64,000 nt of DNA, from NCBI RefSeq assembly GCF_006345805.1, contig NC_042997.1, forward strand, positions 155,682,001-155,746,000, in the 5' to 3' direction. This document shows positions 4,393 to 61,221 of this stretch, in pieces (positions within the stretch are counted from its first letter, which is position 1; every line of letters starts with the position of its first letter). The stretch comes from Octopus sinensis. Lineage: Eukaryota. Below the pieces are notes generated by a model. That model was not told the DNA's origin. It searched no databases and was given only the letters and a program-made list of their open reading frames with translations. Made by a program: the position numbers and the translations under genes.

Positions 4393-4620
4393 CATACATA
4401 TAAGATATATACATACATATATATATATATATACATAACATATTATATTATATACATATATATAATATACATATTATATATATACATATAGATATATATA
4501 TACATACATATATATATACATACATATATATATATCATACATAATATATTATACATACATATATATTATATAGAACATATTATATATATATATATACATA
4601 CATATATATAATAAATACAT

Positions 4621-4652
<32 letters not shown>

Positions 4653-5771: not shown

Positions 5772-5806
<35 letters not shown>

Positions 5807-5818
5807 CATATATATATA

Positions 5819-5872
<54 letters not shown>

Positions 5873-5927
5873 CATATATATATTATATATATATACATAT
5901 AATATATATATATATATAACACATATA

Positions 5928-5979
<52 letters not shown>

Positions 5980-6220
5980 TATAATATATATATACATATA
6001 TACATATTACATATAGATATATATCATATAATATATATATATATATATACCTATTATATATATATATACATAATTATATACAATATATATATATATATAC
6101 ATATATTATATATATATTATATAGATATATATATATATAGATATATATATACATCTATAATATATATATACATATATAGATATACATATATATTATATAT
6201 ATATATATATATATACATAG

Positions 6221-6259
<39 letters not shown>

Positions 6260-6321
6260 ATATATATATATATATATATAATATATACATATATATATAT
6301 ACAATATAACATTATATATAT

Positions 6322-6364
<43 letters not shown>

Positions 6365-6406
6365 TACATATATATATATATATACATATATACATATATA
6401 TATAAT

Positions 6407-6439
<33 letters not shown>

Positions 6440-6528
6440 CATATATATATATATATTATATATATATATATATATAATATACATATATATTATATATACA
6501 TATATTATATATATATATATAATAATAT

Positions 6529-6584
<56 letters not shown>

Positions 6585-7170
6585 CATATATAATATATAT
6601 AAATATCTATATATAATATATATATATATATATACATCCAATATATGATATATATACCTATATATATATATAGACATATATATATATATAAATATATATA
6701 TATATACATACATTATATATATATACATATATATATATATTATATACATACACTATATATATATACATACATATATATACATCATATATATATATAACAT
6801 ACATATTATATATATGATTGATTACATATTATATTATTTATATATAATACTACATATATATATATAATACATATATATATATATATATATACATACATAT
6901 ATATATATATACATACATATATATCTTATATATACATACATATATATATATATACATACATTATATATATATATCATACATATATCTATACTATATTACA
7001 TACATATATATTATATTACATACATACATAAATATATATATATATATACATACATATATATATATATACATACATATAATATATATATATACATACATAT
7101 ATATATATTACATATATATATATATACATACATATATTATATATACATACATATATATATAATATATACA

Positions 7171-7225
<55 letters not shown>

Positions 7226-7295
7226 CATATAGATATATACATACATATATATATATACATACATATAATATACATACATATATATATATACATAC

Positions 7296-7326
<31 letters not shown>

Positions 7327-7572
7327 ATATACATACATATATATATATACATACATATATATATATAATAACATATAAATATATATACACACATATATAT
7401 ATATATACACATATATATATATATACACATAGTATATATAAACATATATATATATATATATAATAATATATCATATACATATATATATACATATACATAT
7501 ATACATATACATATACATATATACATATATATATACATATATATAATATACATATATATATACATATATACA
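1860..7572. repeat. (TA)n/(TACA)n microsatellite block with 36-bp minisatellite arrays
   Basis: Almost pure TA/CA alternation. The unit catatatatatataaatatatatatacatatacata (36 bp) is tandemly repeated at ~2470-2860 and ~4960-5420, visible as [12 protein letters not shown] periodicity in the spurious ORFs. Confidence 0.95.
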
Positions 7573-9660: not shown

Positions 9661-13756
<4,096 letters not shown>

Positions 13757-15862: not shown

Positions 15863-15876
15863 TATATACATATACA

Positions 15877-15967
<91 letters not shown>

Positions 15968-15990
15968 CATATACATATACATATATATAC

Positions 15991-16024
<34 letters not shown>

Positions 16025-16119
16025 ATACATATATATATATATATACTATATATATATATATATACATATATATATACATATACTATATATATTATAATAT
16101 ATATATATAATATATATAC

Positions 16120-16170
<51 letters not shown>

Positions 16171-16178
16171 GATACATA

Positions 16179-16212
<34 letters not shown>

Positions 16213-16235
16213 CATATATATATAATATATATATA

Positions 16236-16326
<91 letters not shown>

Positions 16327-16330
16327 CTAG

Positions 16331-16385
<55 letters not shown>

Positions 16386-16438
16386 CCATATATACATCAT
16401 ATATATATATCATTATACATATATATAATATATATATA

Positions 16439-16472
<34 letters not shown>

Positions 16473-16480
16473 CTATATAT

Positions 16481-16528
<48 letters not shown>

Positions 16529-16541
16529 CAGATATATCATA

Positions 16542-16572
<31 letters not shown>

Positions 16573-16647
16573 CATATATATATACATATATATACATATA
16601 TATATATATACATATACATATATATATACATATATATATATAATATC

Positions 16648-16723
<76 letters not shown>

Positions 16724-16776
16724 ACATATATATATATACAATATATATATATATATACATATATACATATAGATTA

Positions 16777-16808
<32 letters not shown>

Positions 16809-16827
16809 CATATATATATAATATACA

Positions 16828-16858
<31 letters not shown>

Positions 16859-16859
16859 C

Positions 16860-16891
<32 letters not shown>

Positions 16892-17020
16892 CATATATAT
16901 ATACATATAATATATACATATATATATATACATATATATATACATTATATATATATACATATATATATAGATATATACTATATATATAATATACATATAT
17001 ATATATATATCATATATATC

Positions 17021-17052
<32 letters not shown>

Positions 17053-17089
17053 CATATATATATATATACATATATATATCTATATATAC

Positions 17090-17172
<83 letters not shown>

Positions 17173-17325
17173 TATATACATATATACAATACATATATAT
17201 ATATATATATATATACATACATATATATATATATATATACATATATACATACATATATATATATATACATATATACATACATATATATATATACATATAT
17301 ACAGACATATATATATATATCATAT

Positions 17326-17406
<81 letters not shown>

Positions 17407-17458
17407 CATACGTATGTAATATATATATAATATACATATATACATACATATATATATC
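15863..17458. repeat. (TA)n-rich microsatellite block
   Basis: Low-complexity TA/TACA sequence ending in a long pure (TA)n run near 17335-17403. Confidence 0.95.
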
Positions 17459-17707
17459 ACAAATGCAACATAATAGCATCATTGGTTACACATTTCCAAT
17501 ATATCGATATTTCACTTCGCTGCATTTCTGTCAGAAAGACTGACAAGGAAACATCTGTAACTTGATACAGAACAAATATTTCAAGGGCCTGTATTTGAAA
17601 AGCTCCAATTTTAACAGTTTTCTCACAAGAGAATGCATCTCTGACAAATACCAAAGATTATGCCTAAGTATTTAGTCTGGCCAGTGTCTGTCCTGACACA
17701 GTAACTA

Positions 17708-17920
17708 TGGGGTTGGTGCATAATTATTGCGGCTCCTTTTCAACAAAAACATCTTTAAATGACGGTCTGACCATCTGCCAGGCAAATAGAAAGCAGTAAT
17801 TTAAGTAGATAGTGAATATGCTATGGAATAATCATTTAGAGGTGTTTTTGTTACATGTTATTTGTTTTTGTTGAATAAAATTTGTTGAAAAAAAGCCGCA
17901 ATAATTATGCACCAACCCAA
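17708..17920. mobile_element. mariner-derived MITE
   Basis: About 40-bp terminal inverted repeats: gggttggtgcataattattgcggctccttttcaacaaa at left and tttgttgaaaaaaagccgcaataattatgcaccaaccc at right. TA precedes the left end. The TIR resembles the Hsmar1/MADE1-type GGTTGGTGC...ATTGCGG. Confidence 0.8.
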
Positions 17921-18512
17921 AAGGATATTTGTAGTGATTTTCAAGGTAAGATATTGTTGGGGGATATATCACTATGTCATGAAGAAATCTGCCTTGTTTT
18001 GGGTTCAGTCCCACAGTGTAGCATACTGGGTATCTTGTGGTATAGCTTCAGGGCAACAATGTCTGGGGCAACAATGAATTACTTTAGTGAATACAAAACT
18101 GTACGAAGTCTGTCATAAGTATATGCATGTGTGCATGTATGCACATGTGTCTGTGAATATTTACATTCTGAGAGCTTCACATGAAGATCACTGAATAACA
18201 AGCAGCAAAGTCTGTTTTCTTCCACTAGCATTGTACTTTCAGAAATGTAGAATAATGTCTTACTTGAAAAACAGTTAAAGAATAGGAAAAGGAAGTGCAT
18301 TCAATGTAATATGTATTTGTCTAACACATGCAACCATGAGAAAACGGATGTAAAAAAAACCAACAGAGATATGTGTATGTGTGTGTGCATATATATTTCA
18401 AAAATAGGTTATAAATGTGTTTATATGTAAGCATATGTGTGTGTATACACATATATATATATATATACATACATGTACATACATAGACATATATATTCAC
18501 ATACTTCTATAT

Positions 18513-34507: not shown

Positions 34508-34698
34508 TCAGAGAAAATAGGGGGTAGTTGATCGAGTAGGGATGACTCTCTCGTTGTCTGGGACAGCATCAAACAACATGGCTTCCTTGTTATTGCAGTC
34601 TGTAAACGATAGCACTGCCGCCACATTGCCACATCGGTAGCAATAATTTGGAGCAGACCAGACAGTCACCAATTTCTCATCAAACATGTACCGGTAAC
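34508..34698 (-). CDS. PPP6C: PPP6C exon 10 (terminal)
   Basis: (G)[62 protein letters not shown]; AG acceptor at 34699-34700. Confidence 0.97.
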
Positions 34699-37600
34699 CT
34701 GAGGAAAGAATGTAAAAAAAAAAACAAATATATATATAAGACATCTTGAAAATAAAGTAGACTTGAAATAGAAACAGGATCAATTTGAAACAAAACTAGA
34801 TGGAAGATGAATTCAAAGAATTAAAAATTTTAAAAGAGCACAAAAATTCAAATTCATTTTCTTTTTAATATGAGTACTGTTTTAGAAATGTGTCAGCTCA
34901 GAAATCTCATTACAGACTGATGTGACTTGCTACAGTGCCATGTAATCCAGTACTAATTGTTCCATGGTTAAGCAGTTAGCAACAACATTAAAGTTGTTAT
35001 ATTTTGTAGATTATTCTTTCTCAAAATGAAATTCTTTTAATATTTATGTAACACACTTCAAAAAACATTTTATAAAGCTTAAGACTTACCTTCATGTACT
35101 AATTGATGAGCCCGACATATTAATTTTAGATTATTGATATGAACAAACTAAAAAGGAAAAAAAAATGTTGAGAAAAATCAATGACAAAAATTAAAAGAAA
35201 GAACAGAAATAATAGTTATAACTTAGTCAGAAGATGGACGGGTAGCTCTGATGATCATTTCCAAAGTCTCCAAGACTGGAAGGAGAAAAGGGAAGAAGGT
35301 AGGACTTATGGGAAGTTTATAGTATGAAACAGTAACTACATAATGCACCAAGGTGATTAGTCTTCCTTAGACAAGATACCTAGCTAAGTGCTTTTACAGA
35401 GTGGATTAGAATGGCACCCAAGAACATAGGTGACTACATTCATGACTAAAAGAAAGTCATGAATTTAATTAACCACAAGAACAGCAACAGTCCATCTGAC
35501 AAACTTCAGCACCATTTCTATCAAACCAATTTCAATCATAAGGCTTGGATGATTCTAAGGCTATGTTCTGTGAAGTAGTATCCGACCCAAAACCATATAT
35601 TTGTGAAACAAACATTTTAACCAAACAGCCATGCTTGCAATCAACATGGCTTGGTGTAGTGAAGATTTTCTTGTAATCAGGAGAAATGACAGTGAAATTG
35701 GTGGAATTATAAATTCTTACTTGCAACCATTTCAATTCACTTTTTAATGTACTTTTGAGAAATATCTGAATCTCAGACATTCAGAAATCAATAAGGGAGC
35801 TTCTTTTTGTCACTCCATCTACTAGAAATGGCAGACAAATTTCTCTTAAATTACTCTCTACCCTCTTGATTAAGGAAAGAACATGAGATAATGCAGTCAT
35901 GTACATCTCTAAAAACAAAAGATGACCATGGCCAATATGCCTTTGATCTTAGATCTATTTGGTCAGGGTTGATTGGTTAGGATTGACCAAGGTGTAAACA
36001 AGAGGTGGTGATTCAGCAGTCTTTAACACAGCATAAAGAACGCTGCATGGCATTTGTTCCAAATCTTTGCATTTAAGTTCAAATTCTGCTGAGGTTAACT
36101 TTGCCTTTCAACCTTTTGGGGTTCAATAAAAAAATTTTTTTTAAAGTACCAATCCATGGTAATTAATTGATAGAACTGCAAGAACACTGGTTTCAAACTT
36201 TGGCACAAGGTCAACAATTTTGGGGTGGTGGTGGTGGGGGAGTTACACTGACCCAGTGCTCAATTGGTATTCATTATATTAACTCTGAAATGGTAAGAAC
36301 ATTAAACTAGAGATCTTGTGGTATTTGTTTCAGCTCTTTGTATTCTGAATTGAAATCCCGCTACAACCTACTTGGGAGTTAGACTTAATTCACTGCCTGG
36401 TTAACACCATCACCTGGTACCTGGAGTGTTTTGTTCATTTTGTTGCAAGCATTTGGACCAAGTCTTCATTTTCAAGATACCTTCCACCCACCTTTCCATC
36501 CATCTCAAAGGCCCTGTAAAAGGTCATGGGCAACTCCTCCCTCCTGACTTAAAGATAAAAATAAAAACAACAGCATTCATAAATTCCCATCTCTCTAATA
36601 AATCTGACAATGCTCAAACCATTATTTTTTGTTTTAGAGGGAGTTATTTTTCTGTAATTCAAAAATGCATCGACTAATTTGCAGTAAATTTACCAGTTAT
36701 TTTCCAGCAATAAAAACAAAATTTTAACAAGTCAAACCTAAAAGCCATATATTGCAAATAACAGTAACTCACACTTCCAATAATTTTTGTTGTGTAACTG
36801 AATTCCTTTTATTTTCCAGCATGAATCATTGAAATTATGAAGGAGGAAAAGAAATAAAAAATTTGGCCAATTTTTTCAAGAATATGAACATAGCAAAGCC
36901 AACAAGGAATCTTTTACATTAGGCATGGGTAACCTTTTCCAAGAAGAAGGCTGCATGAGACATGGATCGTCATCAGGCAGACTGCCTTACTAAAAAAAAT
37001 TCATGGAAATTTTTCTTTAGGAGTTATTAGGTGCCAGAAAGTCCCACAGGCTACAGTTTACTCATAACAGTTCTACATGGTTGCTCAACCTGCTAGAAAG
37101 AGTAGCTAAATCTCCCTAAATAATGCAATAATATCTTTAAAAGGGACACTGGATATGGAAGCATAAGATACAAGAGGACTGAAAAGAGAGAGAAAGAAAA
37201 TAGCCATATCCTGAACACCTTAGGTGTTAGGCCATCTTGGTTAGGTTAACATGGGGGTAAAAAAAACATTAGCACAGTATAAAAATTGAATTTAGAATGT
37301 ACAACAACAAGATTATTCTTAAGATACAGTAATGTATTTACCTCGTTAGTAACCATTGCTCCAAATAACCAACCAGCACCACGCGGACTAATTGTCCAAC
37401 TTTCCACATCTTCAGGATCAGACCAAACAAGATTTGAATACAGTTAAAGAAAAAAAAATTGTCAAAAGAAAATACTTTACAATACATGTAAACCTACATA
37501 TTCTTTTACACGTTTAAGTCATTTGACTGCAGCCATGATAGAGCACTGCCCTAAAGGGTTTTAGTTGAAGAAATCAACCCTTTCATAAGCCTAGTAATTA

Positions 37601-40600
37601 ATCTGTTGTTCTCTTTTGCTGAACCGTTACGTTATGGGAACATAAACAGTGTCATTGGTTGTCAAGTGATGGTGAGGAGGACAAACAGACACAGGCACAT
37701 ACACACACATAAATATACGAACAACAAGCTTCTTTCAGTTTCCGTCTACCAAATCCACTCACAAGGCTTTGGTCAGCCTGAGGCTATAGTAGAAGACACT
37801 TGCCCAGAACAATGTGGTCGGGAAGCTTCTTACCATACAGCCACACCTACGCTATTTAACTTATTTCTCCACAGATTGAAGAAAGTGATGAAGAGCCCTA
37901 ATCAATTTCCTACCCTTCATGAGCTCTCATTAAAGATATCAACATCATTTGATCAATCCTAGAGAAACAAGTAGCCATTCTGTTTATATATACATCAAAT
38001 CTAGTAGCCTCAGATAACTGGAGCTGTACTCAACTAGATACAATACCATAAGTAATTAAATAATTTCTTTATTAATTGCTGGATTGAGAGGAAGGGACAA
38101 TGCCCATCATAGCAGGCCTTCCTAGACAGGTGAGAGTAATTCCACCAATGTTCCTCTTAAACCTATGTAAGTCAACACCTGCCAGAAAGAAATGATCAGA
38201 GAGGAAATACCAAAGTCGCCAGTGTTCAAACAGCCATGCCCAATCAACTCATTCCACTGCTTTGGTAATTTATAATACAGATGTTGCTAAATAATACACA
38301 TCAAGCTATTCAGAAATTACAATTAGCTAAAAGATTGATAATTCTTAAAAGGATATCACAAAAGGCTCCCTTGTGTGGAATTTCTTGATTTCTGTCAATT
38401 GTCCGGATCTGATCAATGGTTTTGATATCAGGAGATAATCCTCCATGTACACACAAGATACATTCATCAATAATCTATCAAATCAGAAGAGAAAAAAATA
38501 TAGAAAATATATAAATAAAAACAACAGTATTGAAGTAATCAATATAGTAATATAATTATCAGTCAGCTACAATATTATCAATCATCAAATAAATATAAAC
38601 AAGATATAATATTTGTTTAATATTTTTTATGCTTGTTAAAAGAGAAAAGAAGTCATTTTTGGAGTTTTGATTTAGCTAAAACTGTTACAATAATTGAGAG
38701 TTAAATTAGTGTTTAGCAAATGGTGTTCCAACACTTTCCAAACATAGTATATGTAAAACTACTTTGAAAAATATTCATTTTTTTAAAACAGTAGGGTGAG
38801 TTGTGAGGGATATTTGATTTCTATTTCAGCAGGTTAAAAGACCAATCAGAGATTTTTTTAAGATTTAGCTAAGCTAGTGAGGGATGTAAAACTAAGTTAG
38901 CTTTGAGACAAAACTATGTAAACAAAAAGAAGTGCCAATCACTTAAAATGTATGGAAATTGTGGAAAGAGGGTGGCCCAGAAAGACACAGGACAAAGTAC
39001 TGAAGGCTGACCTCAGGACACTGAGCCTTATAGAGGAGATGACAAAAGGCTGAAGTATCTGGTACCTTGCTGCACTCAAGAAGACCCATCCTCCACAGCA
39101 GAATTGTTAATGCCCTACTCCCAGGGGAAGTGGTTTTTGCCTGCAAGAGCTCCATGCCGGTGCCACATAAAAGCACCCGTGTTACTGCCACATAAAATTA
39201 CCTGTGCTGGTACCAAGTAAACAGTATTGGTTTTGCATGGGATGCAATAGAGGAGATCTGCCCAAGGTGTCACACTGTGGGAGTGAACCTATAAAGCACT
39301 TGGCAACAGAGCAAACTTCTTAGCAAATGGCCAAGCCTATGTTACTCTGTATGAATGTATGTAAGACCAGACAAGAAGGTCAAAACAGCACTTAATACCA
39401 ACTGGAGAGATGTGAAGTGCCAGCAGTTATAAACATAAGTGTGTGTGCGCGCGCCCATCTCAGAAAATCACTCAGCTATGATATGGGCAGTGATATTGCT
39501 GTCATTTCCCATGTCAACGGTTTCTATGTTGCCTTTGTACCTTTAAAAACGTGTGCATTACTGTATTCCTTACTTGAAAAACAGACAAGGGTTAGCAGCA
39601 AGAAAGGCTGGTGACATTTTTCTAATTATATTTGCCAGGCTCATGCTAGCATGGAAACAAATGTAAACACAAATGAAACAAAATGAATATAGGATGAATT
39701 CTCATAAGATAACAGCATCTTGCAGAATATTAATTGTAAAATGGCACATAGTATCTATGTATGCTAAATCACTGCACAATATGTGTAAGGTTAAACTGTG
39801 TGACAACTAATCACATAAAAAGTTCAAAGTTCAGTTTACAGTTAATATTTTGTATCCATGAGCAAGTTATGTACTTTTGTTTGCTTAACTAAATGAAAAT
39901 ACAAGCTCTACTGCCTACTTCACAGTTGAATGGTTAGTAGTAGAAAGGACATCCAGCTGTAAAAATGCAGTTGATCTAACATGTAACTTATCCTACCTAT
40001 AATTATGACACAAAGGCTGTTACAAAAGCTAAAAATCTAAAATATAGTTAGCACTATAGATCTAGTGGTTAGTTACTTATTTCTTTATTGCCCACAAGGG
40101 GCTAAACATAGAGGGGACAAACAAGGACAGACAAACGGATTAAGTCGATTACATCGACCCCAGTGCGTAACTGGTACTTAATTTATCAATCCCGAAAGTA
40201 TGAAAGGCAAAGTCGACCTCGGCAGAATTTGAACTCAGAATGTAAAGACAGACGAAAAACTGCTAAGCATTTCGCCCAGCATGCTAACATTTCTGCCAGC
40301 TTACCGCCTTGTGGTTAGTTACTGGTAAGTAGATGCCATATTTGATGACATAAAAATGCACAGAATATCAGACACAGCCCAATTTAAGCAGTTTAGTACA
40401 TTAAAGCTTATGCAAGGCCCAACTTTACATATAGTACATGAGATGATTTTTTTGAGATATTTTCATGTTTCGAGGAAAACATGGATCTTTAATGCTGTCA
40501 AATACAGTATATATTTTTAATGGCTTAGTCATTAAATCCTTTGTTGAAGCTAGCAACAAACTGTTTATACAAGAAATATGCTGAAGTACTTACAGCAGCA

Positions 40601-43600
40601 ATTGTCAGAAGATCAAAGACTTTACAACAATATCGCCATGCATTGGCATTGCCATATTTTGTTTGACACTCATCTGAAAGTAAAGATTAATTTAGGAAAT
40701 TGGGAAAACAAAAAAATATTTAAAAAAAAAAACAATAATAATCCAATCTTAATACATATCAAACAACAAGGATTAACAAAATTAGAATAAAATTATATTT
40801 TCTTCATTCCTTTTAACCCTTTATCTGCAAAATTAAATTTCATGGTTATCCCAATACTGATGGTAAATATCTAATAAAAAAAAAAATTGATTGAGATTTT
40901 CTGCACGTCACATTACCTCAATAAACTTGACATGTCTCAACAGAATACAGTGTCAAACATGACAAAGTAGATTGATATAAAAGTGCTTTTTGCAATTAAA
41001 GGTAATGACTTTTTGAGTGGATATATTTGATTTCTGCAGTAAAGGGGTTAACCAATTCCAAAGCAGAGAAGAGATTGCGTAAAATATAAAACATGTTAAT
41101 TATGCTTAAGTATATTGAATGCAAATGTATTTCACAGCAATATTAACAGATGACTATTTTGTACAAGTGAAAATAGTTAATTCCTTTAATACTGGACAGT
41201 TAGAGAACTTACCATAAAATCCATAGATTTGTGTAATTTGTCTACTTTCATGGTTTCCCCTGAGTAAAACAATTTTATCAGGCCACCTAAAGGAAAAATT
41301 GAACAATTATTTATCAATTTTGAAGTAAAATGATAAAAAGGAATATATATATATATTAATATATACCAATACCAGTCTGAATGTTAAACAACCTCTTAAT
41401 GCTAGTGGCATGATAAAAAAGAGCCTAGCCTATACTGTCAAGTGGTTGGTAGATGATGATGGTGAGTGACTAAAAAAAATCTTACTAAAAATGTGACATA
41501 TACTACAACAAGGAGTAACAATTCTCTCTGCTGTTATATGCATTAGGAATTGGAGGGAACATAAGACAGTGTTGGGGCAGACCCAATCAACTCATGCCAA
41601 CATAAAAAACAAAAGACATGGACGACAACAAGGAGGGTGGAGTGGTGGTGGTGGTGATGATTAAAATGATGATGATGATGATGATAAGGAGGGATTAACA
41701 ACTACTGATAGTAAAAATAATTTTGGTCATAATTCAAATGAGCAAAGGAGAATTACTGATTAGGTCAAATATTTTTTTTCATCTGATTTTAGAAATATTT
41801 CAAAGCAAAGTTGTTTCAGTTACTACAGTAAAAACAGAAAAATAGTTGTTGCTTAAAAATGAAATATCTATGAATGAACATATCTCTGTAGCAGTGGTGC
41901 TATTAAAACATTGCAATTGTGAAGATCAAGAAAGGCTGCTTCAATCTCAACAAGTAATTAAGACTCTTTATATTATAATAATCATCATCATCATCATCGT
42001 TTAACATCCGTTTTCCATGCTAGCATGGGTTGGACGGTTCAAGTGGGGTCTGGGAAGCCAGAAGGCTGCGCCAGGCCCAGTTTGATCTGGCAGAGTTTCT
42101 ACAGCTGGATGCCCTTCCTAACGCCAACCACTCCGTGAATGTAGTGGGTGCTTTTTACATGCCACCTGCACAGGTGCCAGACGAGGCTGGCAAACGGCCA
42201 TGAGATTCCAAAATGCTTCATAAAAAAAAAGTTACAATGCACCTAAAAATATTCATTAGTATTGATAACATTTTAAAGTGGAGTTTGAACTCACTGCTCA
42301 AATTCCTTCTGATAAAGCTAACTTTGATTTCAAGTTAACAATTAAGATGCTTTCCTTCTTTTACATTTGATTATTTGAAGAGAAGCAACAGTTCCTATAT
42401 ATGTGTCATTCCTACTAGATTTAGGAGAGCTTAAGTAGAATTAGTGAGGTTATTTTGATTGCTATAAGGTAATGTTTAGAGTTAAAACATTAACCAGATT
42501 TTCATGTTCAAGAGTAAAGCAATTCTTGATTGAGATGATTGAGACCAACAAATTTCTTATTCCCATAACTCTAGCCCAAAATATTTTTCTCTCTCATCAA
42601 TACTTGATCCTTGCAATTTCTATAAAAGCTAAGATAATATGGATAACATTTGGACTCACAAAGTTTAATGCAATTAAACTAGGAAATGTAGAAAACAAAA
42701 CATAACTTTACACCCATTTTCAAAGTCACAAAATCTATTTATTTGACTAGTTTCCTACTAAACCAACAAAGACAACAGACCAATGAAAAGTAAAATTAAC
42801 TTACTTTGCTTTTAAAGTTAATAACAATGTGAATGTCTCCAAACTGTAGTATCCTCGGTCCACAAAATCTCCCTGGAAAATATCAGTTAATTGTTTAAAA
42901 AAAAATCATTTATTGCATTCATTCTCTTATTCTTTTACTTGTTTCAGTCATATTTAAAAGTTCTTCATTCATGGTAGCTGTGTCCAGTTACATAATATGA
43001 ACTTTGTTTATATTTACTGTGCTCAAACAAAGCAATTAAAATATATCTAGTCTTTTCTCTAAAATAGAGAGATCACATCTTTTAGCCACCATTTAAATAA
43101 GGCCTATATTTTTCAGTAAAACTCCAATTCAAGTAGCTTGCAGTTTTAACTTCTAAAAATCAAATCTAACTTGAGAGCCTTATTAGATTTCATTCATCTA
43201 TGTTCCTGAAAGAAGAGGAGTGATTGTGAAATCTCTTCTTGTACGTTCCTTCTGTCATACTAATAAAGCACTTTAGAGGTCACAAAGGTTGGGCCTGTTG
43301 ATTTAACATATCCATTGCAGGATATGTTCTGTGGGAATGTACCATTGTTTCTATATTAGTAACAGACTTCAGTAGTTGTTGTAAATTTATGGAATAAACT
43401 TGTATTTGTTGAATAGTTCCTGCATCTATGGTTAGTGAGAAAGAGCTTCTTGGGAAGACTTTTACTATGATTTAACCTTTACAGAGTAAGGAGTGTAAAC
43501 TAAATGATATCATGGCTTTTTTTTTCAAAGGTATGTACCTAACTTTATCTTTGAGTCTACTCACTTCTTGTACAACCTCATAGTTAAGGGTTGCTCTATC

Positions 43601-46600
43601 AAAGAACTCTTTACTACAGAACAGATTCAACATCCTTTTACATATATTATTGATTAGGTTTTGGAACACAAAAGACAGATGTCATGAACCAATAACTAAG
43701 TCACTGTAGTAGATTTGGCAGATGGAAACTGAAAGAAACTTATCATGTACATGCATGAGTGAATTTATATGTGAATCTTACTAGTTTTGCCATTGTGTGA
43801 TCATTGTGAAAGAATGTATATTTCCAATCTTCTGTGAAAAACATGTCTGACCTGGAGAGATATTACTTTGCTTGGGGACAGATGAGTGTTGGTGACAAGG
43901 AAAAGCAGCCAGCTACAGAAAATCTGCCTCAATGAATTCATTGTGACCCATGCAAGCATGGAAAAGTGGACATTAGAATGATGATGATGATGAGTGAAAC
44001 GAGTAAATGTAAGAATTTAATATTCTTTTACTGGTTTCATTCACTGGACTGTGGCCATACTAGAGCACTGTTTTCAAGGTTTTAACTGGTCCTGTCAACT
44101 CCAGTACTTAATTCAGTCTGTTCTCTATCAAACAGCGAAGTTGTAAGACATAAAGGATTTTTATTCTGAACAACATAAACTTAGACACATTTACTCTCTC
44201 ACACACACATGCATACAGCTAACTTCTGTGTAATTTCTGTGTACCAAATTTCATTCACAAAATATTGGTTAACCCAAGGCTATGATAGAAGAGACCAGCT
44301 CTGCATATAACAGTGATTGAACTTGGAATCATGTGATCATGAAGTAAACTTCATAACCATGCAACTATACCTGTGGTTATATAACATATTTAGCTTGTAA
44401 ACGTTTTATGCCAAGTAGATTGTTGTGAAGTGGAATAAGCTCTAAATACTTACCATAAATACATAATGTTTATCTGGCATTTCACCACCAGTACGGAAAA
44501 GGGCCATTAAATCATAAAACTGGAAAAAAAAAAGAAAATATAGAATAGTGGTAAGAAAAAAATCTTCCAAATATGGAAATCAAGTTAATGCAAAAAAAAA
44601 AAAACATTAATATTTTCTATTACTAAAAGTTAATTAAAACCAAAATAATTAAATATATTGGCAATTATGTATACAAAAACTTAAATGTATACTGAAGTTA
44701 TTTTAATAGAACATTTGTAATTTGGTCAGAGGAGATCAGATGGCACCCATGAAGCTTTGCAGAGTCTCTGAGAATGGTGGGGATTAAAGGGGTAAGAGAG
44801 AAACTATGATGGTGCCAATAAAATGAGTACCAGTGGCTCTTGTGCCAGTGACACATAAAAAGCACCACCCAAATGAGGTCGATGCCAGTTTCACCTGACT
44901 GGCTCCTGTGCCAGTGGCATGTAAAAAGCACCATCCAAACGTGGTAAATGCCAGTGTCCCCTGACTGGTTCCTGTGCCAGTGGCACGTAAAATGCACTAT
45001 CCGAACATCATCAATGCCAGGCCCGTCTGAGTGGATCCTGTGCCGGTGGCATGTAAAAAGCAACCACGATACTCTCAGAGTGGTTGGCGTTAGGAAGGGC
45101 ATCCAGCTGTAGAAACATTGCCAGATTAGATAGGAGCCTGGTGCAGCCGCTGGCTTTCCAGATCTCAGTCAAACCATCTAACCCATGCCAGTGTGGAAAA
45201 CGGATGTTAAACAATGATGATGATGATGATGACTGAACCAACTATATCCCTCTTCCAGAAAGTGGAGCTTTGTGCCTAGGTTAGAAACCATCACCATTAT
45301 CATTTTATGTCCACTTCCCATACTGACATGGGCTGGTTGTCACAAACCAAGTCAGTTCTTATTCAGAATTACTGCCCTCGTGGATGGGTTAGAAGACCCC
45401 ATTTCTCTAGTACATTCAATTTTGGCTTGGTTTCTGTGGCTGGGTGCTCTTCCTAATGTCAATCAATTACAGAATGCACTTAGTGCATTCTATCATGGCA
45501 CCAACACTAGAGAAACTGTTATGTATGTGACTGAACAAAACTAAAGGGTTCTCTCGACTCTGGAAGAGACAATACAAAGGGATGAATAGAAAAACAGTAT
45601 AAGAGAGAGAGAGAGTGGTGGTAGGTACATGTTTACTGCTAAGAGAGGATGCAAGTGATAGATAATCATAGATATGGATAATAGTAAGAGAAATCAGTGG
45701 CTAGTAATACAGAAGAGCAATGGTTGAGTGTACTGGACATGAACAAGCTTGATATACTCTTGTATTATCCAAGTGTTATAATGGGAGTCAGAGAGTGATG
45801 GAGATGGTGGAAGGAGGGAGTGGAGTAATTGAGTATGGACAGATCCTATGCCAATCATTATAATTATAAAAATAATCTCAAACACAGAAGAAATCGTCAT
45901 CAACGTTATTACCATCATCATATGACTGGTGAAAAATCCCTGGATTTAAATCATTTTTCATCAAAGGAAATCTGCTATTTATTTGGAAATATGGACATAC
46001 ACAGATGCCCAACTTAAAAGCTATTAAATTCTTCTGACAGTGATTAGAACTCTTTTCACTTATAATTAAAAGAGCATTATCTTTATCATTGATCTTTTAC
46101 TTGTTCTAGTCATTGGATTGCAGCAATGCTAGGGAACCATTTTGAATGGCTTTTAATCAAACTAATTGATCCCCAGCACTTGTGTTTTAAAAAGTCTGGT
46201 ACTTATTTTATTGGTCACTTTTGCCAAAACACTAAGAGTTGTTAAGTGGGTGAAGGGAGAAACACACTGTATCTACCAATTTCACTCACAAGGCATTAGC
46301 CAGCTTGAGGCTATAGTAGAAGATACTTGCCCAAGGTGCCTTGCAATAGTACTGAACCTGAAAACATGTGGTTGCAAAGAGAGCTTCTTAACCACACAGC
46401 CATGCCTGTGTCAATGGAGAAGAAATTTCCATTGTTTTTATGGTGATGTTGATACAACAGAGTAATTACCCAAGTCAGCATTTAATAAATGTTAATAGTC
46501 AACTTGAATTATTGGGATATTAAATATATAGAAAGCACAAGTGGAATAGTACACTTACCTGTCCATGAATATCTCCACATACAATAACTGGTGTTGACAC

Positions 46601-49600
46601 TGGCTGTACATTGGATTCTTCCAGTAAAAGTTCACATACTAGTTCACATAGTTTCTATAATGAAAGAGAAAAAAATCAATAGATGATTTAAAGTTCTGTC
46701 TTACTTATAATTAAAATAAATACTACTCCAAATTATTAATGTTTCAGTTTTTTTTTATCAATCAGGAAAGAAAAATATATTTAGTTAAATATTAAGCTGG
46801 AAGTTAGAGAAATTTAACAGGGAAAATGTTTTTAAGGTCAAACAAATTTAAAACATACAATCAGAATTTCTTTTTTACAGAATGAAATATTGTTTAGCCC
46901 CATTGTGGCTCTGGTCCAGCAGATTTATGACCCAAAGCCTTTCAGCCATGACCATCCCATCCATTCCTCAGTCATGAATCTAGTGTTACTTTCTAAAGAT
47001 GGAGTAGGGGGAGTTGAAGGAGATTTGGCTATTTTTAACAGGTTGAGAGACCACATGAATGCACAAGAGGTGTAGAAAGATTGTAGAAATGTAGACAAGA
47101 AATAAACATTTTGAGTATCTTATTCCCTAGCTGAAGTTGTCTCTATGTTTAGCAGCAAAGCACTGAAGATGCAACTCCAGTGCTTTTCTGAAAACAATAG
47201 ATAGGGTCTTTCATTAAAAGAACAAAATGATTAAAGTGATTCATGACAGTGACAAGTCAAAATTGTGATAAAGTATGGAAAAAAAAAGACTTGTGGCAGT
47301 AACTTAATCACATACAACATCTTTCATTAATATGAGCCAATGAGAGAACCTCTATGTGGTATCAAAAAGTTCCCGGACTAGTTAATGTCCTGCCTCAAAC
47401 GCTTCAAAACATCGTTGATTGTCCTCCAACAATCCTCATGCACAAGCTGATGAATTTAGGGGGTGATGCTCATGGCAGGTCTTCTAGGGACGTTCTTCGA
47501 CTTTTGAGGTGCCCATGCCACTGGAAACATTGCATATGTCCTATTGCCTTGTCGCCGTAAGCTTGCCGAAGCATGCTCAATGTCTCTGTAGCAGACTTCC
47601 CAAGTTTAACACAAAATTTTATGTTGGCTCTTTGTCCCGTCTTCCTGTCCATGAAAAAATCGCAGACTACGGTATACACATGATTACAAAATTTCCCAAA
47701 TTTCAAAACTTGCAAAGTAAACACAGTCACTACTAGCTCTCACTGTGCATACAACTGTGTGCTGCCATCTGTTGGCGTGCTACGGAACTAGTCCAGGAAG
47801 GTTTCGATACCACCTTGTATATTGCTATTAATATGAAAGAAAAAAAAACCAAATCTCCTTCAAATCACAATCTACTGCTTAAAAGACAAAAATAGGAAGG
47901 CCACTTCAGATTTGATAGTGCAATCCTAGATACAGTATTCCTGAAAAAACAAAGATTGGACAGTAATTGCTGAGATACCTTTATTTATAGGCATGCTTAA
48001 TCAGAATTCAGAAAGAGCTAAACATCATAATCACTAATATAATAGAAAATAACCATAGATAATCATCTATCCAACATCAAGCTTCTCCTTCTCCTCTCTG
48101 TAATTGTAAGTATAGGTTCAACAAAGTCAGATCCACTGAAAATCTATCCTGTGTTACAGATCAGGGATACTGCTGTTGCAAACTTGGGAAAAAAACGAAA
48201 ATATTGCTATTCAAATCACCAAAATTTTTTAGTATACTAGACATGAGAATCCCAAACCAGGTTACCAATGAATGAGTGTTGTCTATCATGAGTAAAGAAG
48301 ACCAACAGTTTCTAGCCAAGATGAGTAGCTTGTATGGAAAGGATTCCTTCCAAGCTACAATTGATTTGACATTTGACAAACAGTGACTGTAAAGTATTGA
48401 TAGTTTGAATTAGTTCAATACCATTGTAACTCAGATGCTGCCTATTTTGTGGAAATCTCACTACTGACTCTGTATCCTCTTTATTCACAAATGATACATG
48501 GTTCAAACCATCTCACTTCTTACATTTTCTAGATTTGACAATTACAAACAATTTCTTCTGAAATCTTCACATACTTCAAGACAAAAAGCCAATCACTTAA
48601 CCATGAACAGCTCCTAACCTTTACAAAAACCAGATATCTCTGTACTATAAAAGTTATCACATATCATACATTTAAGATAATACACTCACAATATATATAG
48701 TGTCCTCCCTTACACACACACAAATAAATAAAAAAAACCTCATCTAACTGATAGACAAAGCTTCATTTATATACAACCATTAGCTCACAACTTAAATCTT
48801 TCATATTTAATATTGCTTTTTATTCAGTTTTCCAGGTTTTGCATATTTTTATTGCTTTTTTTATACCTATTTTAAATAATCTCTGAAAATTTACATAACT
48901 TAGCTATTGGTGTGCAGCTTGTAATACAATGATTTATTCTGAGAAGAATTAACTGGTTACTAATCCCTTTTCAATTCATCAAATCAACCAGCCTCATTAA
49001 AATCCAATAGGTCACTTACGTTTCCACTTCTATGCCGAAAGCTATTATATAAAATGAAAACTATCAAATTTCTTTCTGAAGACATTAATAATTTTATCTG
49101 AATCTATTAAGATCTTTAGACACTAGTCATTAAGTCTATGAGCTTAAACTATTTTGCATTATTTACAACAATTTAGATACCTGAAAATATGAGCAAAATG
49201 ACGAGCTAAATATAGAGTTTATATGAATCATGGAGAAAATACTAAAAGCTCATGTAATTAGTTCATGGAATTATTGTATTAATGAAAAATAAAAAGGACA
49301 CAAGAATGACTGAACTGAGAACTAGTTCTTCAGTTTAAAAATAGACATTTGTTTACTAAACAGTAAACCAGTCACGACAGCAAATATATATTTTATACTC
49401 TCTGTATAAGAAAAGGAAAAACAGAAAAAAAAAAAATGGATGTACATTTTACAAAATTTTTGCAACAAAATGAAAAGAATTATATACCAGACTTGAGAAT
49501 CCCAAACCAGGTTACCAGTGAATGAATGTTATCTGTAGACCAATCATTTCTGACCCAGTTGTATATCTCCTGTGGACAGGGCTCCCTCCAAATTACAAGC

Positions 49601-59100: not shown

Positions 59101-61221
59101 TTACATTTTCGAGAAAGAAATACAAAAAAGAATTGATAAAAGATAAACCTTGTAACATCTAAAACAATTTTTAAAAATCTGAACACGGACTATCCGATTA
59201 TAAGTTGCTATTTGTGGCCGTGATAGTTGTGTAGATATATTAGTAATCTCTCGGCATATCATCCTCACCAACATAACTTCTCTATTCATTAAAATACGTC
59301 AACTATCATTTCTGAAAGGGGCTCTCTCCCACAGGCTATGAGTAATGGATTTTCTCCAGAAACATAGATAAGAAATAACAAATTCTCCAGGCTATATGAT
59401 CTGATCAGACGTAAAGTAAGAACATCGTGAAAGAAGCAAAGCAACTCGGCCGATATATAGTTCACTCAACCAAATCTAGAACTTAAAAAAGAAAATTAAA
59501 AAAAAAAAAGCTTTCTGGCATTTGTCTTTACTCAATAACGATACTTCCTGTTATCATTACCTTCAATGCAGATGTTCATTTGTTCTTAGGTTTCATTGAA
59601 TTAATTCTCACTATCTTAAAAGTGGCATTCATTTGAACACGATGTTGTTTGTAGTTTACATTACAAACCTAGTTATCCATTAAATTCTGCTTTTCCTCCT
59701 TCCTAGAAGATATAACGCTTGGGGAGTTTTACAAATTACAAGTATAAAATAAACCCCAGAAAAAGGAAGACTACTTAAAAATAAGCTAATAATAATTAAC
59801 ATTTTAAATCACAGGTCATAATTCATTTTTACTTAATGTGAAACACAAAGAATTGCTATAGGGATACGGAACATAAATCACAGCCGCGGTGACAATTACA
59901 TTTCCTTTAACCAAAACTGATTATAAGGGTGGTGTTTTTTTTTTATTCATTTTTTTTATTTCTGGGGGTTGGGGCAGTCGAAAAGAGAATCAAGTTTGAA
60001 AATCGTTGAAGAAACTTCTATCAAATATCGATAACGGCGAAAATATTTAAAAAGCATAACAGTGAGGGGAGGATGAATATCGAAAACAAACAAAATCATA
60101 AAGTAACGATTTTCTCTTTGGTTTCCTTTCTGCGATTTAATTAGTTTTTGATCTGTGTCACGAACCAACAAGTATATAATTGCCCGAGGTACAAGAAAAT
60201 ATTGGACGGAGTTGTTTAAAACTATTGTTTCTAAAAAGTACACTTGTTAAGTAGCGCCATCGGAACTGAATCGGTTAACAGCAAAGCTGTAAGATATCGC
60301 AGAAGAAAAACAATCGGAAAGACGTCATCCCGTCCCCCATCCCCACATTTTCTCGCAAATCATTGTTTTTTAAAATTTTTTTGCCAAAAACCCAAGTTTT
60401 CGGGAAAGACCTCATCCCTTTCCCCTCCCCCCATTTTCTCGCAAATTATTATTTATTAAATTTTTTTTTTTTTTTGTCAAAAACCCATTTTTTCGGATAC
60501 GGAAATTCGGGGGGTACAAAAAGAAATCTTGCCGAACAATCTATTAATGAGTGATTATAAAAATGTCCGGTAGTTTTAGATACCTATAAGAAACATTTTG
60601 AGGAACTTGACAGAACTTTTCCCTCTCTCACTATATATATATATAATATTAACGGAACTTACTTTATATAATCTATGTAAAGGTAAGCTGAATAGAGAGT
60701 AAGAGAAATAACATGAAAAAGTAACGGATACATATAAAGATGAAAACTATATGAGAAAAGAGTTTCAGGTGAATAGACTTAACAAGGAATATTTATATAT
60801 TAAAAAACAAACAAAAAGCATTAATCAGTAAAAGATATGGTAGAGCTTTGTGACAGTTGGAGACGTTATCAGAGATAATACATAATAGAAACAGTTTTTT
60901 AAAGTATGTTTCAAATGAAAGTGAGACTTAATTGAGGTTAAATACAAACAAGAACATAATAAATCAGTTGATAAATTAAAGGAGAGATTTTTATAAGTAA
61001 ACGAACTAATTAATGAACCCTCACTTGATGACCATCTTCTACTAAAATTGATTGATGACACATAAACTGAATATTAAAAGTGATAGGTCATAAATTTCCC
61101 TATTAAATGTAGTTTTCCCTAATATTTACAAATAATAAATATGTACCTTTAGATCATTTTCCGGAAGATATTTGCATTCTTTTGCAATTTCTATCCACTT
61201 GTCAACACATTCGTCCGCCAT
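34508..61221 (-). CDS. PPP6C: Serine/threonine-protein phosphatase 6 catalytic subunit, 10 coding exons, 305 aa (overall span)
   Basis: join(61147-61221,46559-46654,44454-44519,42805-42872,41213-41286,40594-40673,38357-38474,37342-37433,35090-35147,34508-34698) = 918 nt with all phases consistent. It contains the PPP motifs [25 protein letters not shown] and SAPNY, PP6-type N-terminus KYLPENDLK and C-terminus TTPYFL. Confidence 0.97.
35090..35147 (-). CDS. PPP6C: PPP6C exon 9
   Basis: [19 protein letters not shown](G); 58 nt; AG acceptor and GTAAGT donor. Confidence 0.96.
36920..37070. mobile_element. hAT-like MITE (degenerate) in PPP6C intron 8
   Basis: Starts taggcatgggtaacc with an eroded right TIR. 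The 8-bp flanks ttttacat and ttctacat (7/8) are consistent with a TSD. Confidence 0.45.
37342..37433 (-). CDS. PPP6C: PPP6C exon 8
   Basis: (D)[30 protein letters not shown]; 92 nt; GTAAAT donor. The upstream acceptor is non-canonical (AA). Confidence 0.95.
37434..38356 (-). other. U12-type (minor spliceosome) intron with AT-AA termini, PPP6C intron 7, 923 nt
   Basis: The 5' end reads ATATCCTTTT (U12 consensus RTATCCTTT). A branch-site-like TTCTTTAAC (37451-37443) is followed by only tgtattcaa before the exon. There is no AG nearby, and this join restores the conserved GAFCDLVWSDP. Confidence 0.85.
37501..37852 (-). mobile_element. tRNA-headed SINE inside PPP6C intron 7
   Basis: Reverse complement begins gcgtaggtgtggctgtatggtaagaagcttccc and contains gggcaagtgtcttctactatagcctcagg and gtgagtggatttggtagacggaaactgaaagaagc. 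Confidence 0.75.
38357..38474 (-). CDS. PPP6C: PPP6C exon 7
   Basis: [39 protein letters not shown](D); 118 nt; AG acceptor; followed by ATATCCTTTT. Confidence 0.96.
40078..40310 (-). mobile_element. full-length tRNA-derived SINE with 13-bp target-site duplication
   Basis: Reverse complement starts ggcggtaagctggcagaaatgttagc (A-box-like), then gagttcaaattc (B-box-like) and the core gactttgcctttcat...gataaattaagtaccagt. gtggttagttact is duplicated at 40065-40077 and 40311-40323. Confidence 0.85.
40594..40673 (-). CDS. PPP6C: PPP6C exon 6
   Basis: (D)[26 protein letters not shown]; 80 nt; AG/GTAAGT. Confidence 0.96.
40817..41047. mobile_element. piggyBac-like MITE in PPP6C intron 5
   Basis: TTAA on both sides (40813-40816, 41048-41051), CCC...GGG ends, and TIRs ccctttatctgcaaaattaaat vs cccctttactgcagaaatcaaat. 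Confidence 0.7.
41213..41286 (-). CDS. PPP6C: PPP6C exon 5
   Basis: (K)[24 protein letters not shown]; 74 nt; AG/GTAAGT. Confidence 0.96.
41983..42200 (-). mobile_element. RTE LINE 3' tail fragment in PPP6C intron 4
   Basis: (CAT)n + tttaacatccgttttccatgctagcatgggtt + gtttctacagctggatgcccttcctaacgccaaccactc. Confidence 0.8.
42805..42872 (-). CDS. PPP6C: PPP6C exon 4
   Basis: [22 protein letters not shown](K); 68 nt; AG/GTAAGT. Confidence 0.96.
44454..44519 (-). CDS. PPP6C: PPP6C exon 3
   Basis: [22 protein letters not shown]; 66 nt; AG/GTAAGT. Confidence 0.96.
44810..45232 (+). mobile_element. RTE LINE 3' tail with four ~65-bp subrepeats, in PPP6C intron 2
   Basis: Four copies of ctgtgccagtggca.gtaaaaagcacc, then ggcgttaggaagggcatccagctgtagaaac and a (GAT)n tail. 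Confidence 0.8.
46088..46410 (-). mobile_element. tRNA-headed SINE, degenerate
   Basis: gaggctatagtagaagatacttgcccaaggtgcc...cttcttaaccacacagccatgcctg, colinear with 37501-37852. Confidence 0.65.
46559..46654 (-). CDS. PPP6C: PPP6C exon 2
   Basis: [32 protein letters not shown]; 96 nt; AG/GTAAGT. Confidence 0.97.
47353..47819 (-). mobile_element. internally deleted mariner element retaining the transposase N-terminal HTH
   Basis: TIRs gtggtatcaaaaagttcccggactagtt and gtggtatcgaaaccttcctggactagtt (reverse complement). ORF 47470-47730 encodes [43 protein letters not shown], typical of the mariner DNA-binding domain. Confidence 0.88.
49640..50912 (+). mobile_element. 5'-truncated, internally deleted RTE-type LINE in PPP6C intron 1
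   Basis: [41 protein letters not shown] and GRGRPRKTW; 3' UTR with subrepeats and a (GAT)n tail at ~50901-50912. Confidence 0.92.
51365..51890 (+). mobile_element. older degenerate RTE LINE fragment
   Basis: [28 protein letters not shown] and downstream sequence colinear with 49925-50410, with many stops. Confidence 0.75.
53024..53099. repeat. (TG)n(GA)n compound microsatellite
   Basis: Direct reading: tgtgtgtg followed by about 30 GA units. Confidence 0.95.
54283..54593. mobile_element. hAT-like MITE
   Basis: TIRs cagagctgaccaacctga and caggcttggccaacttga (reverse complement), CAG...CTG ends, and 8-bp flanks ccctaaca and ctctaaca (7/8). Confidence 0.65.
55903..56230 (-). mobile_element. 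degenerate RTE-tail repeat
   Basis: (CAT)n + tttaatgcccactttctatgctgtcatggattggatggtttgac + ggatgccctt..taacaccaaccactc. Confidence 0.65.
60315..60497. repeat. imperfect two-unit tandem duplication (~87-95 bp)
   Basis: ggaaagac.tcatccc...cattttctcgcaaat.att...aaattttttt..caaaaaccca..ttttcgg occurs twice in succession. Confidence 0.8.
61147..61221 (-). CDS. PPP6C: PPP6C exon 1 (start codon)
   Basis: [25 protein letters not shown]; 75 nt; context gaaATGGCG; GTACAT donor; followed by a 14.5-kb intron 1. Confidence 0.95.

What the first reader, a model, noticed from the sequence alone, without database searches (positions are those of the whole stretch)
37434..38356. PPP6C intron 7 appears to be a minor-spliceosome (U12) intron with rare AT-AA termini
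Seen: exon 7 ends ...GCC TTT TGT G and is followed by ATATCCTTTT. Exon 8 begins AT CTT GTT TGG TCT GAT and is preceded by ttttTTCTTTAACtgtattcAA, with no AG available. Only this join restores the conserved GAFCDLVWSDP and the 305-aa length; the other eight introns are GT-AG. Established: RTATCCTTT and a TTCCTTAAC-like branch site about 10-20 nt from the 3' end define U12 introns; AT-AC and GT-AG are the usual ends, AT-AA is a rare variant, and U12 introns can be rate-limiting for expression. Inference: PP6 output here depends on the minor spliceosome, and GT-AG gene predictors will mis-model this gene. Caveat: the junction can slide by 1-2 nt (AT repeat) with the same mRNA, and AA could be a base-call error for AC.
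Basis: partly seen in the sequence, partly recalled or inferred. Interest (0 to 1): 0.75.

Follow-up and report, generated by a model that had tools for sequence, protein, structure and literature searches.

The report
Octopus PP6 minor intron ending AA
An octopus gene for protein phosphatase 6 has one old intron that starts with AT and ends with AA, is cut out exactly there in transcript assemblies, and is likely removed by the rare minor spliceosome; this is a known, tolerated variant that likely arose by a single base change and that two public octopus protein records have mis-drawn.

Summary
Confirmed, and ordinary in kind. PPP6C has 10 exons on the minus strand (305 aa, identical to RefSeq octopus PP6c). 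Intron 7 (38356-37434, 923 nt) reads ATATCCTTT...TTCTTTAAC-TGTATTCAA. The 923-nt skip appears in 4 of 4 likely-RNA contig sets (3 studies). The AA is unchanged in 4 of 4 DNA contig sets, so it is not a base-call error. U11, U12, U4atac, U6atac and CENATAC-like exons are in the genome. The same intron sits at the same codon in 11 metagenome PP6 loci, 5 of them cnidarian-like. Of the 8 complete ones, 7 are AT-AC and 1 is U12-type GT-AG, so AA is likely a derived octopus change. Vertebrate-like fragments lack the intron. A co-assembled tiny-intron animal (likely a dicyemid) has a 25-nt GT-AG intron there without U12 motifs. Only 2 of 35 nearby GT-AG pairings keep the frame, and both exist as database proteins (296 and 309 aa); RefSeq is right. 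AT-AA is the commonest non-canonical minor subtype (823 introns, 1.1% in animals). Rate limitation was not measurable. The scan noted the same intron earlier in another octopus genome (e1-9569396).

The parts
37434..38356 (-). PPP6C intron 7, 923 nt, phase 1 (inside the Asp codon of GAFC-D-LVWSDP), U12-type, AT-AA
   Evidence: skip of 923 nt in 4 of 4 likely-RNA contig sets
38348..38356 (-). U12-type 5' splice site ATATCCTTT
   Evidence: best U11 (-8.5) and U6atac (-7.2 kcal/mol) duplex of the 9 introns; same donor in 11 orthologous loci
37443..37451 (-). U12-type branch box TTCTTTAAC (one C-to-T change from the recalled consensus TTCCTTAAC; its two A's lie 12 and 11 nt from the 3' end)
   Evidence: 9 nt between box and intron end, as in 6 of 8 complete orthologues (read)
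37434..37435 (-). terminal AA (AC in 7 of 8 complete orthologues, AG in 1)
   Evidence: no difference listed in 4 of 4 DNA contig sets
37410..37411 (-). AG inside exon 8 used as acceptor by both database mis-models
38358..38359 (-). GT inside exon 7 used as donor by the 296-aa mis-model (P0002)
38319..38320 (-). intronic GT used as donor by the 309-aa mis-model (P0121)
61147..61221 (-). PPP6C coding exon 1 (75 nt)
46559..46654 (-). exon 2 (96 nt)
44454..44519 (-). exon 3 (66 nt)
42805..42872 (-). exon 4 (68 nt)
41213..41286 (-). exon 5 (74 nt)
40594..40673 (-). exon 6 (80 nt)
38357..38474 (-). exon 7 (118 nt)
37342..37433 (-). exon 8 (92 nt)
35090..35147 (-). exon 9 (58 nt)
34508..34698 (-). 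exon 10, coding part (191 nt with stop)

Best explanation
Intron 7 of this octopus PPP6C gene is cut out at 38356/37434 in transcript contigs and is likely removed by the minor (U12) spliceosome, and its terminal AA likely arose from an ancestral AC by one base change in the octopus lineage. Mechanism: U11, then U6atac, would pair with ATATCCTTT (predicted; best duplexes of the nine introns). U12 would pair with TTCTTTAAC through one G-U wobble (predicted). The 3' cut would be set by its distance from the branch A (11-12 nt, inside the published optimum of 11-13 nt) rather than by an AG, so AA is tolerated (established for the class, inferred here). Shown: the sequence, the spliced join, the AA in independent DNA, the snRNA genes, the orthologous introns. 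Inferred: which spliceosome acts, the exact register of the cut, the direction AC to AA, and that the change is near neutral. Full-length PP6c needs this intron removed, since retention stops the frame at codon 208.
For: Gene model and identity with RefSeq PP6c. Join 37431/38355 with 2-nt slide in 4 of 4 contig sets, 3 studies; in X18 and X20 one contig carries exons 7, 8 and 10 with 0 other letters. AA unchanged in X1, X7, X11, X14 (4 studies, 4 organism labels; X1 may be the source sample, leaving 3). U12 126.6 bits, U6atac 96.9, U11 94.5, U4atac 83.8, all over cut-off and on chromosome-scale contigs; CCDC84/CENATAC exons over cut-off. U11 duplex -8.5 vs -3.3 or weaker for the other 8 introns; U6atac -7.2 vs -5.9 or weaker. 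11 PP6 loci among 120 pattern hits carry a U12 donor at the same codon; of 8 complete, 7 AT-AC and 1 GT-AG; 5 group with Nematostella at 95/90. ORFs that read through the intron's 3' end give D (13) or H (2, plus 1 missed by the first pattern) before LVWSDP and never N, among 66 proteins. AT-AA minor introns and AC/AA switches between orthologues are documented (PMC1557818 Tables 2-3; PMC10639083 Table S1).
Against: All transcript evidence is assembled contigs from runs only guessed to be RNA; no raw reads and no lariats. The mRNA cannot fix the register (AT-AA, TA-AA and AT-AT cuts give the same product). The branch box deviates from consensus, and its U12 duplex (-6.8) is no better than those of the other introns' 3' ends (-5.6 to -9.1). 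Neither motif is enriched in the window by itself. Major-spliceosome AT-AC introns exist (PMC8280824 passage). The metagenome pattern required a U12 donor, so it could not find orthologues that had lost it. No squid or cuttlefish locus was seen, so the AC-to-AA change is not dated. The Haliotis rubra record P0017 has N before LVWSDP, which could be an independent AA or a model artefact (unresolved).
Confidence: 0.92

Rival explanations
1. The AA is an assembly or base-call error for AC, so this is an ordinary AT-AC minor intron.
For: 7 of 8 complete orthologues end in AC.
Against: Contigs of 4 runs, 4 studies and 4 organism labels span 37434-37435 with no difference listed there, while differences are listed at nearby places. 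X7 and X14 have 10 and 7 other letters, of which only 4 and 5 are listed. At 37434 their contigs make up over half the depth, so a change there should have been listed (inference).
Confidence: 0.01
2. The gene is mainly spliced by the major spliceosome at GT-AG sites, giving the 296-aa or 309-aa proteins found in databases.
For: Both proteins exist: P0002 (UniRef A0A0L8IH57, O. bimaculoides) and P0121 (CAI9716164.1, O. vulgaris).
Against: They are exactly the only 2 in-frame pairs of 35 GT/GC-AG pairs near the junction, as a gene finder would choose. Both remove the conserved DLVWSDP motif and score lower on PF00149 (135.1 and 141.4 vs 148.2 bits). Neither join is among the joints shown (12 weaker joints were not shown), and RefSeq gives the 305-aa form for the same species as P0002. 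Contigs drop rare variants, so low-level cryptic use is not excluded.
Confidence: 0.02
3. The join is right but is made by the major spliceosome or in another register (AT-AT, two bases further on).
For: The mRNA is the same for three registers; read laying itself printed AT..AT ends; a run of 10 T lies just upstream of the branch box.
Against: Only register 0 gives RTATCCTT. The GT-AG orthologue L110 and the orthologue L088 (exon starting AC) cannot slide two bases forward, which fixes the homologous register (read). Box-to-end spacing equals that of 6 of 8 orthologues only in register 0. The donor does not resemble the GT donors of the other 8 introns (GTAAGT in 6, GTACAT and GTAAAT in 1 each).
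Confidence: 0.03
4. The AA is not neutral: it weakens or blurs the acceptor (a second AA and an AT follow at +1 and +2) and was kept as a throttle that ties octopus PP6 dosage to minor-spliceosome or CENATAC activity.
For: AA is shared by 4 organism labels. [quoted passage not shown] Non-canonical termini often splice with reduced efficiency (PMC3584512 passage). Retention or a 1-2 nt slip would break the frame.
Against: No 1-2 nt slip form is listed in any of the 4 contig sets (weak, since rare forms are dropped). The organisms compared differ by only a few percent here, so sharing is expected without selection. A pan-eukaryote survey argues in its title that neutral processes may explain much of minor-intron evolution (PMC10639083).
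Confidence: 0.1

Closest known systems
Non-canonical AT-AA U12-type introns (human RASGRP4, FLJ21106, MSH3; PMC1557818 Tables 2-3; 823 conserved animal cases, 1.117%, PMC10639083 Table S1)
   Same: RTATCCTT donor, branch box close to the 3' end, AA terminus. MSH3 is AT-AA in human and AT-AC in mouse, the same switch as seen here between octopus and other animals.
   Different: Different gene and phylum. I found no paper describing this intron, but two Octopus species were in the PMC10639083 survey, so it may well be in that survey's per-species tables, which I could not see.
A-type (AT-AN) minor introns dependent on CENATAC/CCDC84 (PMC8280824)
   Same: AT-AA is named as an A-type terminus; CCDC84-family exons are present in this genome.
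   Different: Dependence and raised retention were shown in human cells and are untested here.
Orthologous PPP6C intron of other animals (loci L048, L054, L056, L061, L082, L088, L090 AT-AC; L110 GT-AG)
   Same: Same codon, same phase, U12 donor, branch box 8-10 nt before the end.
   Different: Last base C or G rather than A; their box keeps CCTT where this one has CTTT.
Human PPP6C entry in the minor-intron list of PMC6717393 (614 nt, human only)
   Same: Same gene name.
   Different: Its donor context is CGG-GTATCCAGT, not TGTG-RTATCCTT, and it is listed at over 95% mis-splicing index; likely a different intron. Vertebrate-like genomic ORFs lack the intron studied here.
RefSeq octopus PP6c XP_029640369.1 / XP_052827323.1
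   Same: Identical 305-aa protein, so the junction is already modelled correctly there.
   Different: None at protein level.

Membership tests
U12-type (minor) intron | 5' splice site RTATCCTT | tested here: met
   ATATCCTTT at 38356-38348
U12-type (minor) intron | Branch box close to TTCCTTAAC | tested here: met
   TTCTTTAAC, one change
U12-type (minor) intron | Short branch-to-3'-end distance (optimum 11-13 nt, PMC3584512) with no pyrimidine tract in between | tested here: met
   A's at -12 and -11; 9 mixed bases follow the box
U12-type (minor) intron | Donor pairs with the genome's own U11 and U6atac better than major donors do | tested here: met
   best of 9 introns for both
U12-type (minor) intron | Branch box pairs distinctively with the genome's own U12 | tested here: inconclusive
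   -6.8 kcal/mol, within the range of the other 8 introns' 3' ends
U12-type (minor) intron | Host encodes U11, U12, U4atac, U6atac | tested here: met
U12-type (minor) intron | Excised from transcripts at these ends | tested here: met
   923-nt skip in 4 of 4 contig sets; register ambiguous by 2 nt
U12-type (minor) intron | Conserved position with minor-type orthologues | tested here: met
   11 loci
U12-type (minor) intron | Splicing needs minor-spliceosome components | not testable with these tools
   needs a knock-down or minigene
U12-type (minor) intron | intronIC minor-intron score above threshold | not testable with these tools
   intronIC is not among the installed programs
AT-AA subtype | Genomic termini AT and AA | tested here: met
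   register by homology
CENATAC-dependent A-type intron | Raised basal retention, retention on CENATAC loss | not testable with these tools
   only contigs were served; depth cannot rank parts of a gene
PP6 catalytic subunit (PPP6C) | Identity with annotated PP6c, metallophosphoesterase domain, groups apart from PP2A/PP4-like sequences | tested here: met
   identical to P0124; PF00149 148.2 bits; tree

The most novel reading that the evidence does not exclude
One base change turned an intron at least as old as the cnidarian-bilaterian split into an AAAT-ended, slip-prone acceptor that makes octopus PP6 dosage a read-out of minor-spliceosome (CENATAC) activity. This single site then shows every fate of a minor intron side by side: AT-AC, AT-AA, U12 GT-AG, conversion to a 25-nt major-type micro-intron in a likely dicyemid parasite of the same host, and loss in vertebrates.
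Probability: 0.1. Interest if true: 0.5.

Novelty: new member of a known kind. Interest (0 to 1): 0.2.

Why it matters
Practically, it shows a real annotation trap: two public octopus PP6c records lack the conserved DLVWSDP motif because a GT-AG model was forced over this intron. For evolution, it is a tidy single-site series of minor-intron fates and a natural AC/AA pair for testing how the minor spliceosome picks its 3' site. It does not change what is known about minor introns: AT-AA is the commonest non-canonical subtype in animals and plants.

Tried and rejected
No run is on record as RNA (no RNA holder listed); the four laid are guesses, accepted as spliced because single contigs join several exons. 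Retention: intronic contigs exist near intron 7 and intron 8 alike (X18 record 13, X8 record 27, X20 record 15). None bridges a junction by 31 letters, and contig depth cannot rank them, so there is no verdict. U12 duplex energy did not separate intron 7 from the others. Window-wide motif counts are at chance. 109 of the 120 metagenome pattern hits were not PP6 and were dropped; 3 of the 11 PP6 loci (L012, L049, L050) end before exon 8. The viral-contig search did not run because the exon-8 query was too short. PDB gave only PP2A/PP5/PP3 relatives. Host PP2A-like paralogues L141 and L142, and L143, show no break in CDLLWSDP, nor does L140 in SDLLWSDP, so the intron is not shared with them; L144 was not interpretable there. 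I considered that the donor arose by duplication of coding sequence, since G-ATATCCTT reads D-I-L; its age and the GT-type orthologue give no support. A processed retrocopy as source of the spliced contigs is unlikely: the exon-10 search found one 100% match in the genome. The paper on U12 terminal-dinucleotide mutants was not held under the id I recalled. Taxa of L012, L048 and L110 were not resolved. The insect U12 paper had no PP6 mention in its text; only 2 of 8 'phosphatase' places in its supplement were seen. No structure prediction or complex job was run, as none bears on the question.
Full report
Observation. Ten coding exons from 61221 to 34508 give 918 nt and a 305-aa protein; introns 1-6, 8 and 9 are GT-AG, and intron 7 runs from 38356 (ATATCCTTTT) to 37434 (TTCTTTAAC-TGTATTCAA), 923 nt, phase 1. 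The translation is identical to P0124, which carries RefSeq labels for PP6c of two Octopus species, and it matches PF00149 at 148.2 bits. The exon-10 search of the genome gave 8 matches, only one at 100%, the window's own. Neither motif is enriched in the window on its own (3 vs 2.89 and 2 vs 1.56 expected); their position at the exon edges is what counts.

Is it spliced there? No run was on record as RNA. I laid 4 of the runs guessed to be RNA (3 studies). All 4 show a joint 37431/38355 that skips 923 nt and can slide by 2, which includes the proposed cut. In X18 and X20 one contig carries exons 7, 8 and 10 with no other letters. The two GT-AG alternatives are not among the joints shown, but 12 weaker joints were not shown and contigs drop rare forms. 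The mRNA cannot fix the register: cuts at 0, +1 and +2 give the same product.

Is the AA real? Contigs from X1, X7, X11 and X14 (4 studies, organism labels A, B, D, E) span 37434-37435 with no difference listed, while differences are listed at nine nearby places. X1 may be the source sample; the other three are independent. X7 and X14 have more other letters than the table lists. At this place their contigs hold over half of the depth, so I infer that a change would have been listed.

Machinery. U12 (126.6 bits), U6atac (96.9), U11 (94.5) and U4atac (83.8) all pass their cut-offs on chromosome-scale contigs, and CCDC84/CENATAC exons are present. With the genome's own snRNAs, the intron-7 donor gives the best duplex of the nine introns with U11 (-8.5 vs -3.3 or weaker) and U6atac (-7.2 vs -5.9 or weaker). 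The branch-box duplex with U12 (-6.8) does not stand out from the others (-5.6 to -9.1). The two branch A's lie 12 and 11 nt from the end, inside the 11-13 nt optimum given in PMC3584512 (passages).

History of the intron. Eight reach exon 8: seven are AT-AC and one is GT-AG, all at the same codon with a CCTT(A/G)(A/G)(C/T)-type box, six of them with the same 9-nt spacing as here. In a protein tree five of the 11 group with Nematostella (95/90), three fall weakly among molluscs, and three are unresolved. This scan could only find introns that keep a U12 donor. A second, donor-independent survey used predicted ORFs covering exon 8 (66 proteins). 34 are genomic fragments with exons 7 and 8 contiguous, so without the intron; in a recount of 35, 29 match named vertebrate proteins best. 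13 read through an intron ending in G, 2 (plus one missed by the first pattern) through an intron ending in C, and none through one ending in A. 10 lack a break here but have another structure, and 7 were not classed. The simplest reading is an AT-AC minor intron at least as old as the cnidarian-bilaterian split, switched to GT-AG or lost many times, and changed to AA in octopuses. One exception is unresolved: the Haliotis rubra record P0017 has N before LVWSDP. On contig C2502 of the same assembly, a divergent PP6 gene with introns of about 24-28 nt has a 25-nt GT-AG intron at the same codon with no U12 motif. Such short introns are reported in animals only for dicyemids and myxobolids (PMC13644364, passages), so this is likely a co-assembled dicyemid and a U12-to-U2 conversion. 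Earlier scan notes suggest that this organism keeps some minor introns (unchecked).

Annotation. Of 35 GT/GC-AG pairs within 60 nt of the junction, 2 keep the frame, giving 296 and 309 aa. Both are in the databases: P0002 (UniRef A0A0L8IH57, O. bimaculoides) and P0121 (CAI9716164.1, O. vulgaris), otherwise identical to the 305-aa protein. The insert in P0121 is the translation of this intron's first bases, so O. vulgaris likely has the same donor.

How it works. Shown: sequence, join, AA, snRNA genes, orthologues. Inferred: U11/U12 recognise donor and branch box, U6atac takes over the donor, and the 3' cut is placed by distance, so the last base is flexible. Retention would stop the frame at codon 208, before the RGAG, RAHQ and SAPNY motifs, so full-length PP6c needs this step. 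Whether the step is rate-limiting, or worse with AA than with AC, was not measurable: only contigs were served.

Comparison with what is known. AT-AA is the commonest non-canonical minor terminus: 823 conserved animal introns, 1.117% (PMC10639083; passages; supplement part 8). PMC1557818 (Tables 2-3) lists human AT-AA introns and an AA/AC switch in MSH3. PMC8280824 (passages) shows that A-type introns are spliced less efficiently and need CENATAC. The human PPP6C entry in the PMC6717393 supplements (rows) has another donor context and is likely a different intron. Searches for PPP6C with 'minor intron', 'protein phosphatase 6' with 'U12-type', and 'cephalopod' with 'minor spliceosome' found no paper; the 15 listed of 313 papers had no PPP6C mention; the PMC11347168 supplement has none. 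Searches were seen as search listings only. Subscription papers and the per-species intron tables of the large surveys, which included two Octopus species, were not visible and may already list this intron. The scan recorded the same intron earlier in another octopus genome, 2460 letters long there (e1-9569396; unchecked AI note). I saw it after reaching my reading.

Verdict. Real, well supported, a new member of a known kind. Interest 0.2.

Noticed in passing
G000:C2502 (L132, L133, L139), also C9497 (L140), C8907 (L143), C8460 (L144): Unplaced contigs carry PPP-family genes with very short introns (about 24-28 nt in L132), likely a co-assembled dicyemid parasite. Its PP6 gene is present twice about 28 kb apart in near-identical copies and appears to share 7 of the 9 octopus intron positions, with a 25-nt GT-AG intron in place of the U12 intron.
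   Followed up: partly
genome-wide: 43 U6atac-like matches over the family cut-off on many contigs, against 2-5 matches for U11, U12 and U4atac; the three loci read have unrelated flanks. Possibly an expansion of retrocopies or pseudogenes.
   Followed up: no
window 20192-19257, minus strand: Intronless 311-aa ZNF330/NOA36 open reading frame (PF06524, 484 bits) downstream of PPP6C; intron loss or retrocopy not examined.
   Followed up: partly
G000:C18:12.40-12.58 Mb (L147-L149): CCDC84/CENATAC exons appear twice about 144 kb apart with equal scores: a tandem duplication or an assembly duplicate.
   Followed up: no
P0017 (Haliotis rubra RefSeq XP_046555159.1): Reads GPLCNLVWSDP where other molluscs read GAFCDLVWSDP, at the position of this intron; it could reflect an independent AA end, a mis-model or a sequence error.
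   Followed up: no
P0025, P0035, P0043, P0044, P0015, P0019 (spider, snail, tick, sea anemone records): Several other invertebrate PP6c models are broken or truncated around exons 7-8; the spider record P0025 reads through an intron end that implies AC.
   Followed up: partly
window 2001-18000: Long extremely AT-rich stretches (GC 0.07-0.15) with strong negative GC skew, interrupted by two blocks at GC 0.40-0.44; not examined.
   Followed up: no
window about 37500-37810 and 36070-36360: Introns 7 and 8 carry fragments of very abundant interspersed repeats (depths in the tens to hundreds of thousands), the first beginning about 65 nt upstream of the intron-7 acceptor.
   Followed up: no
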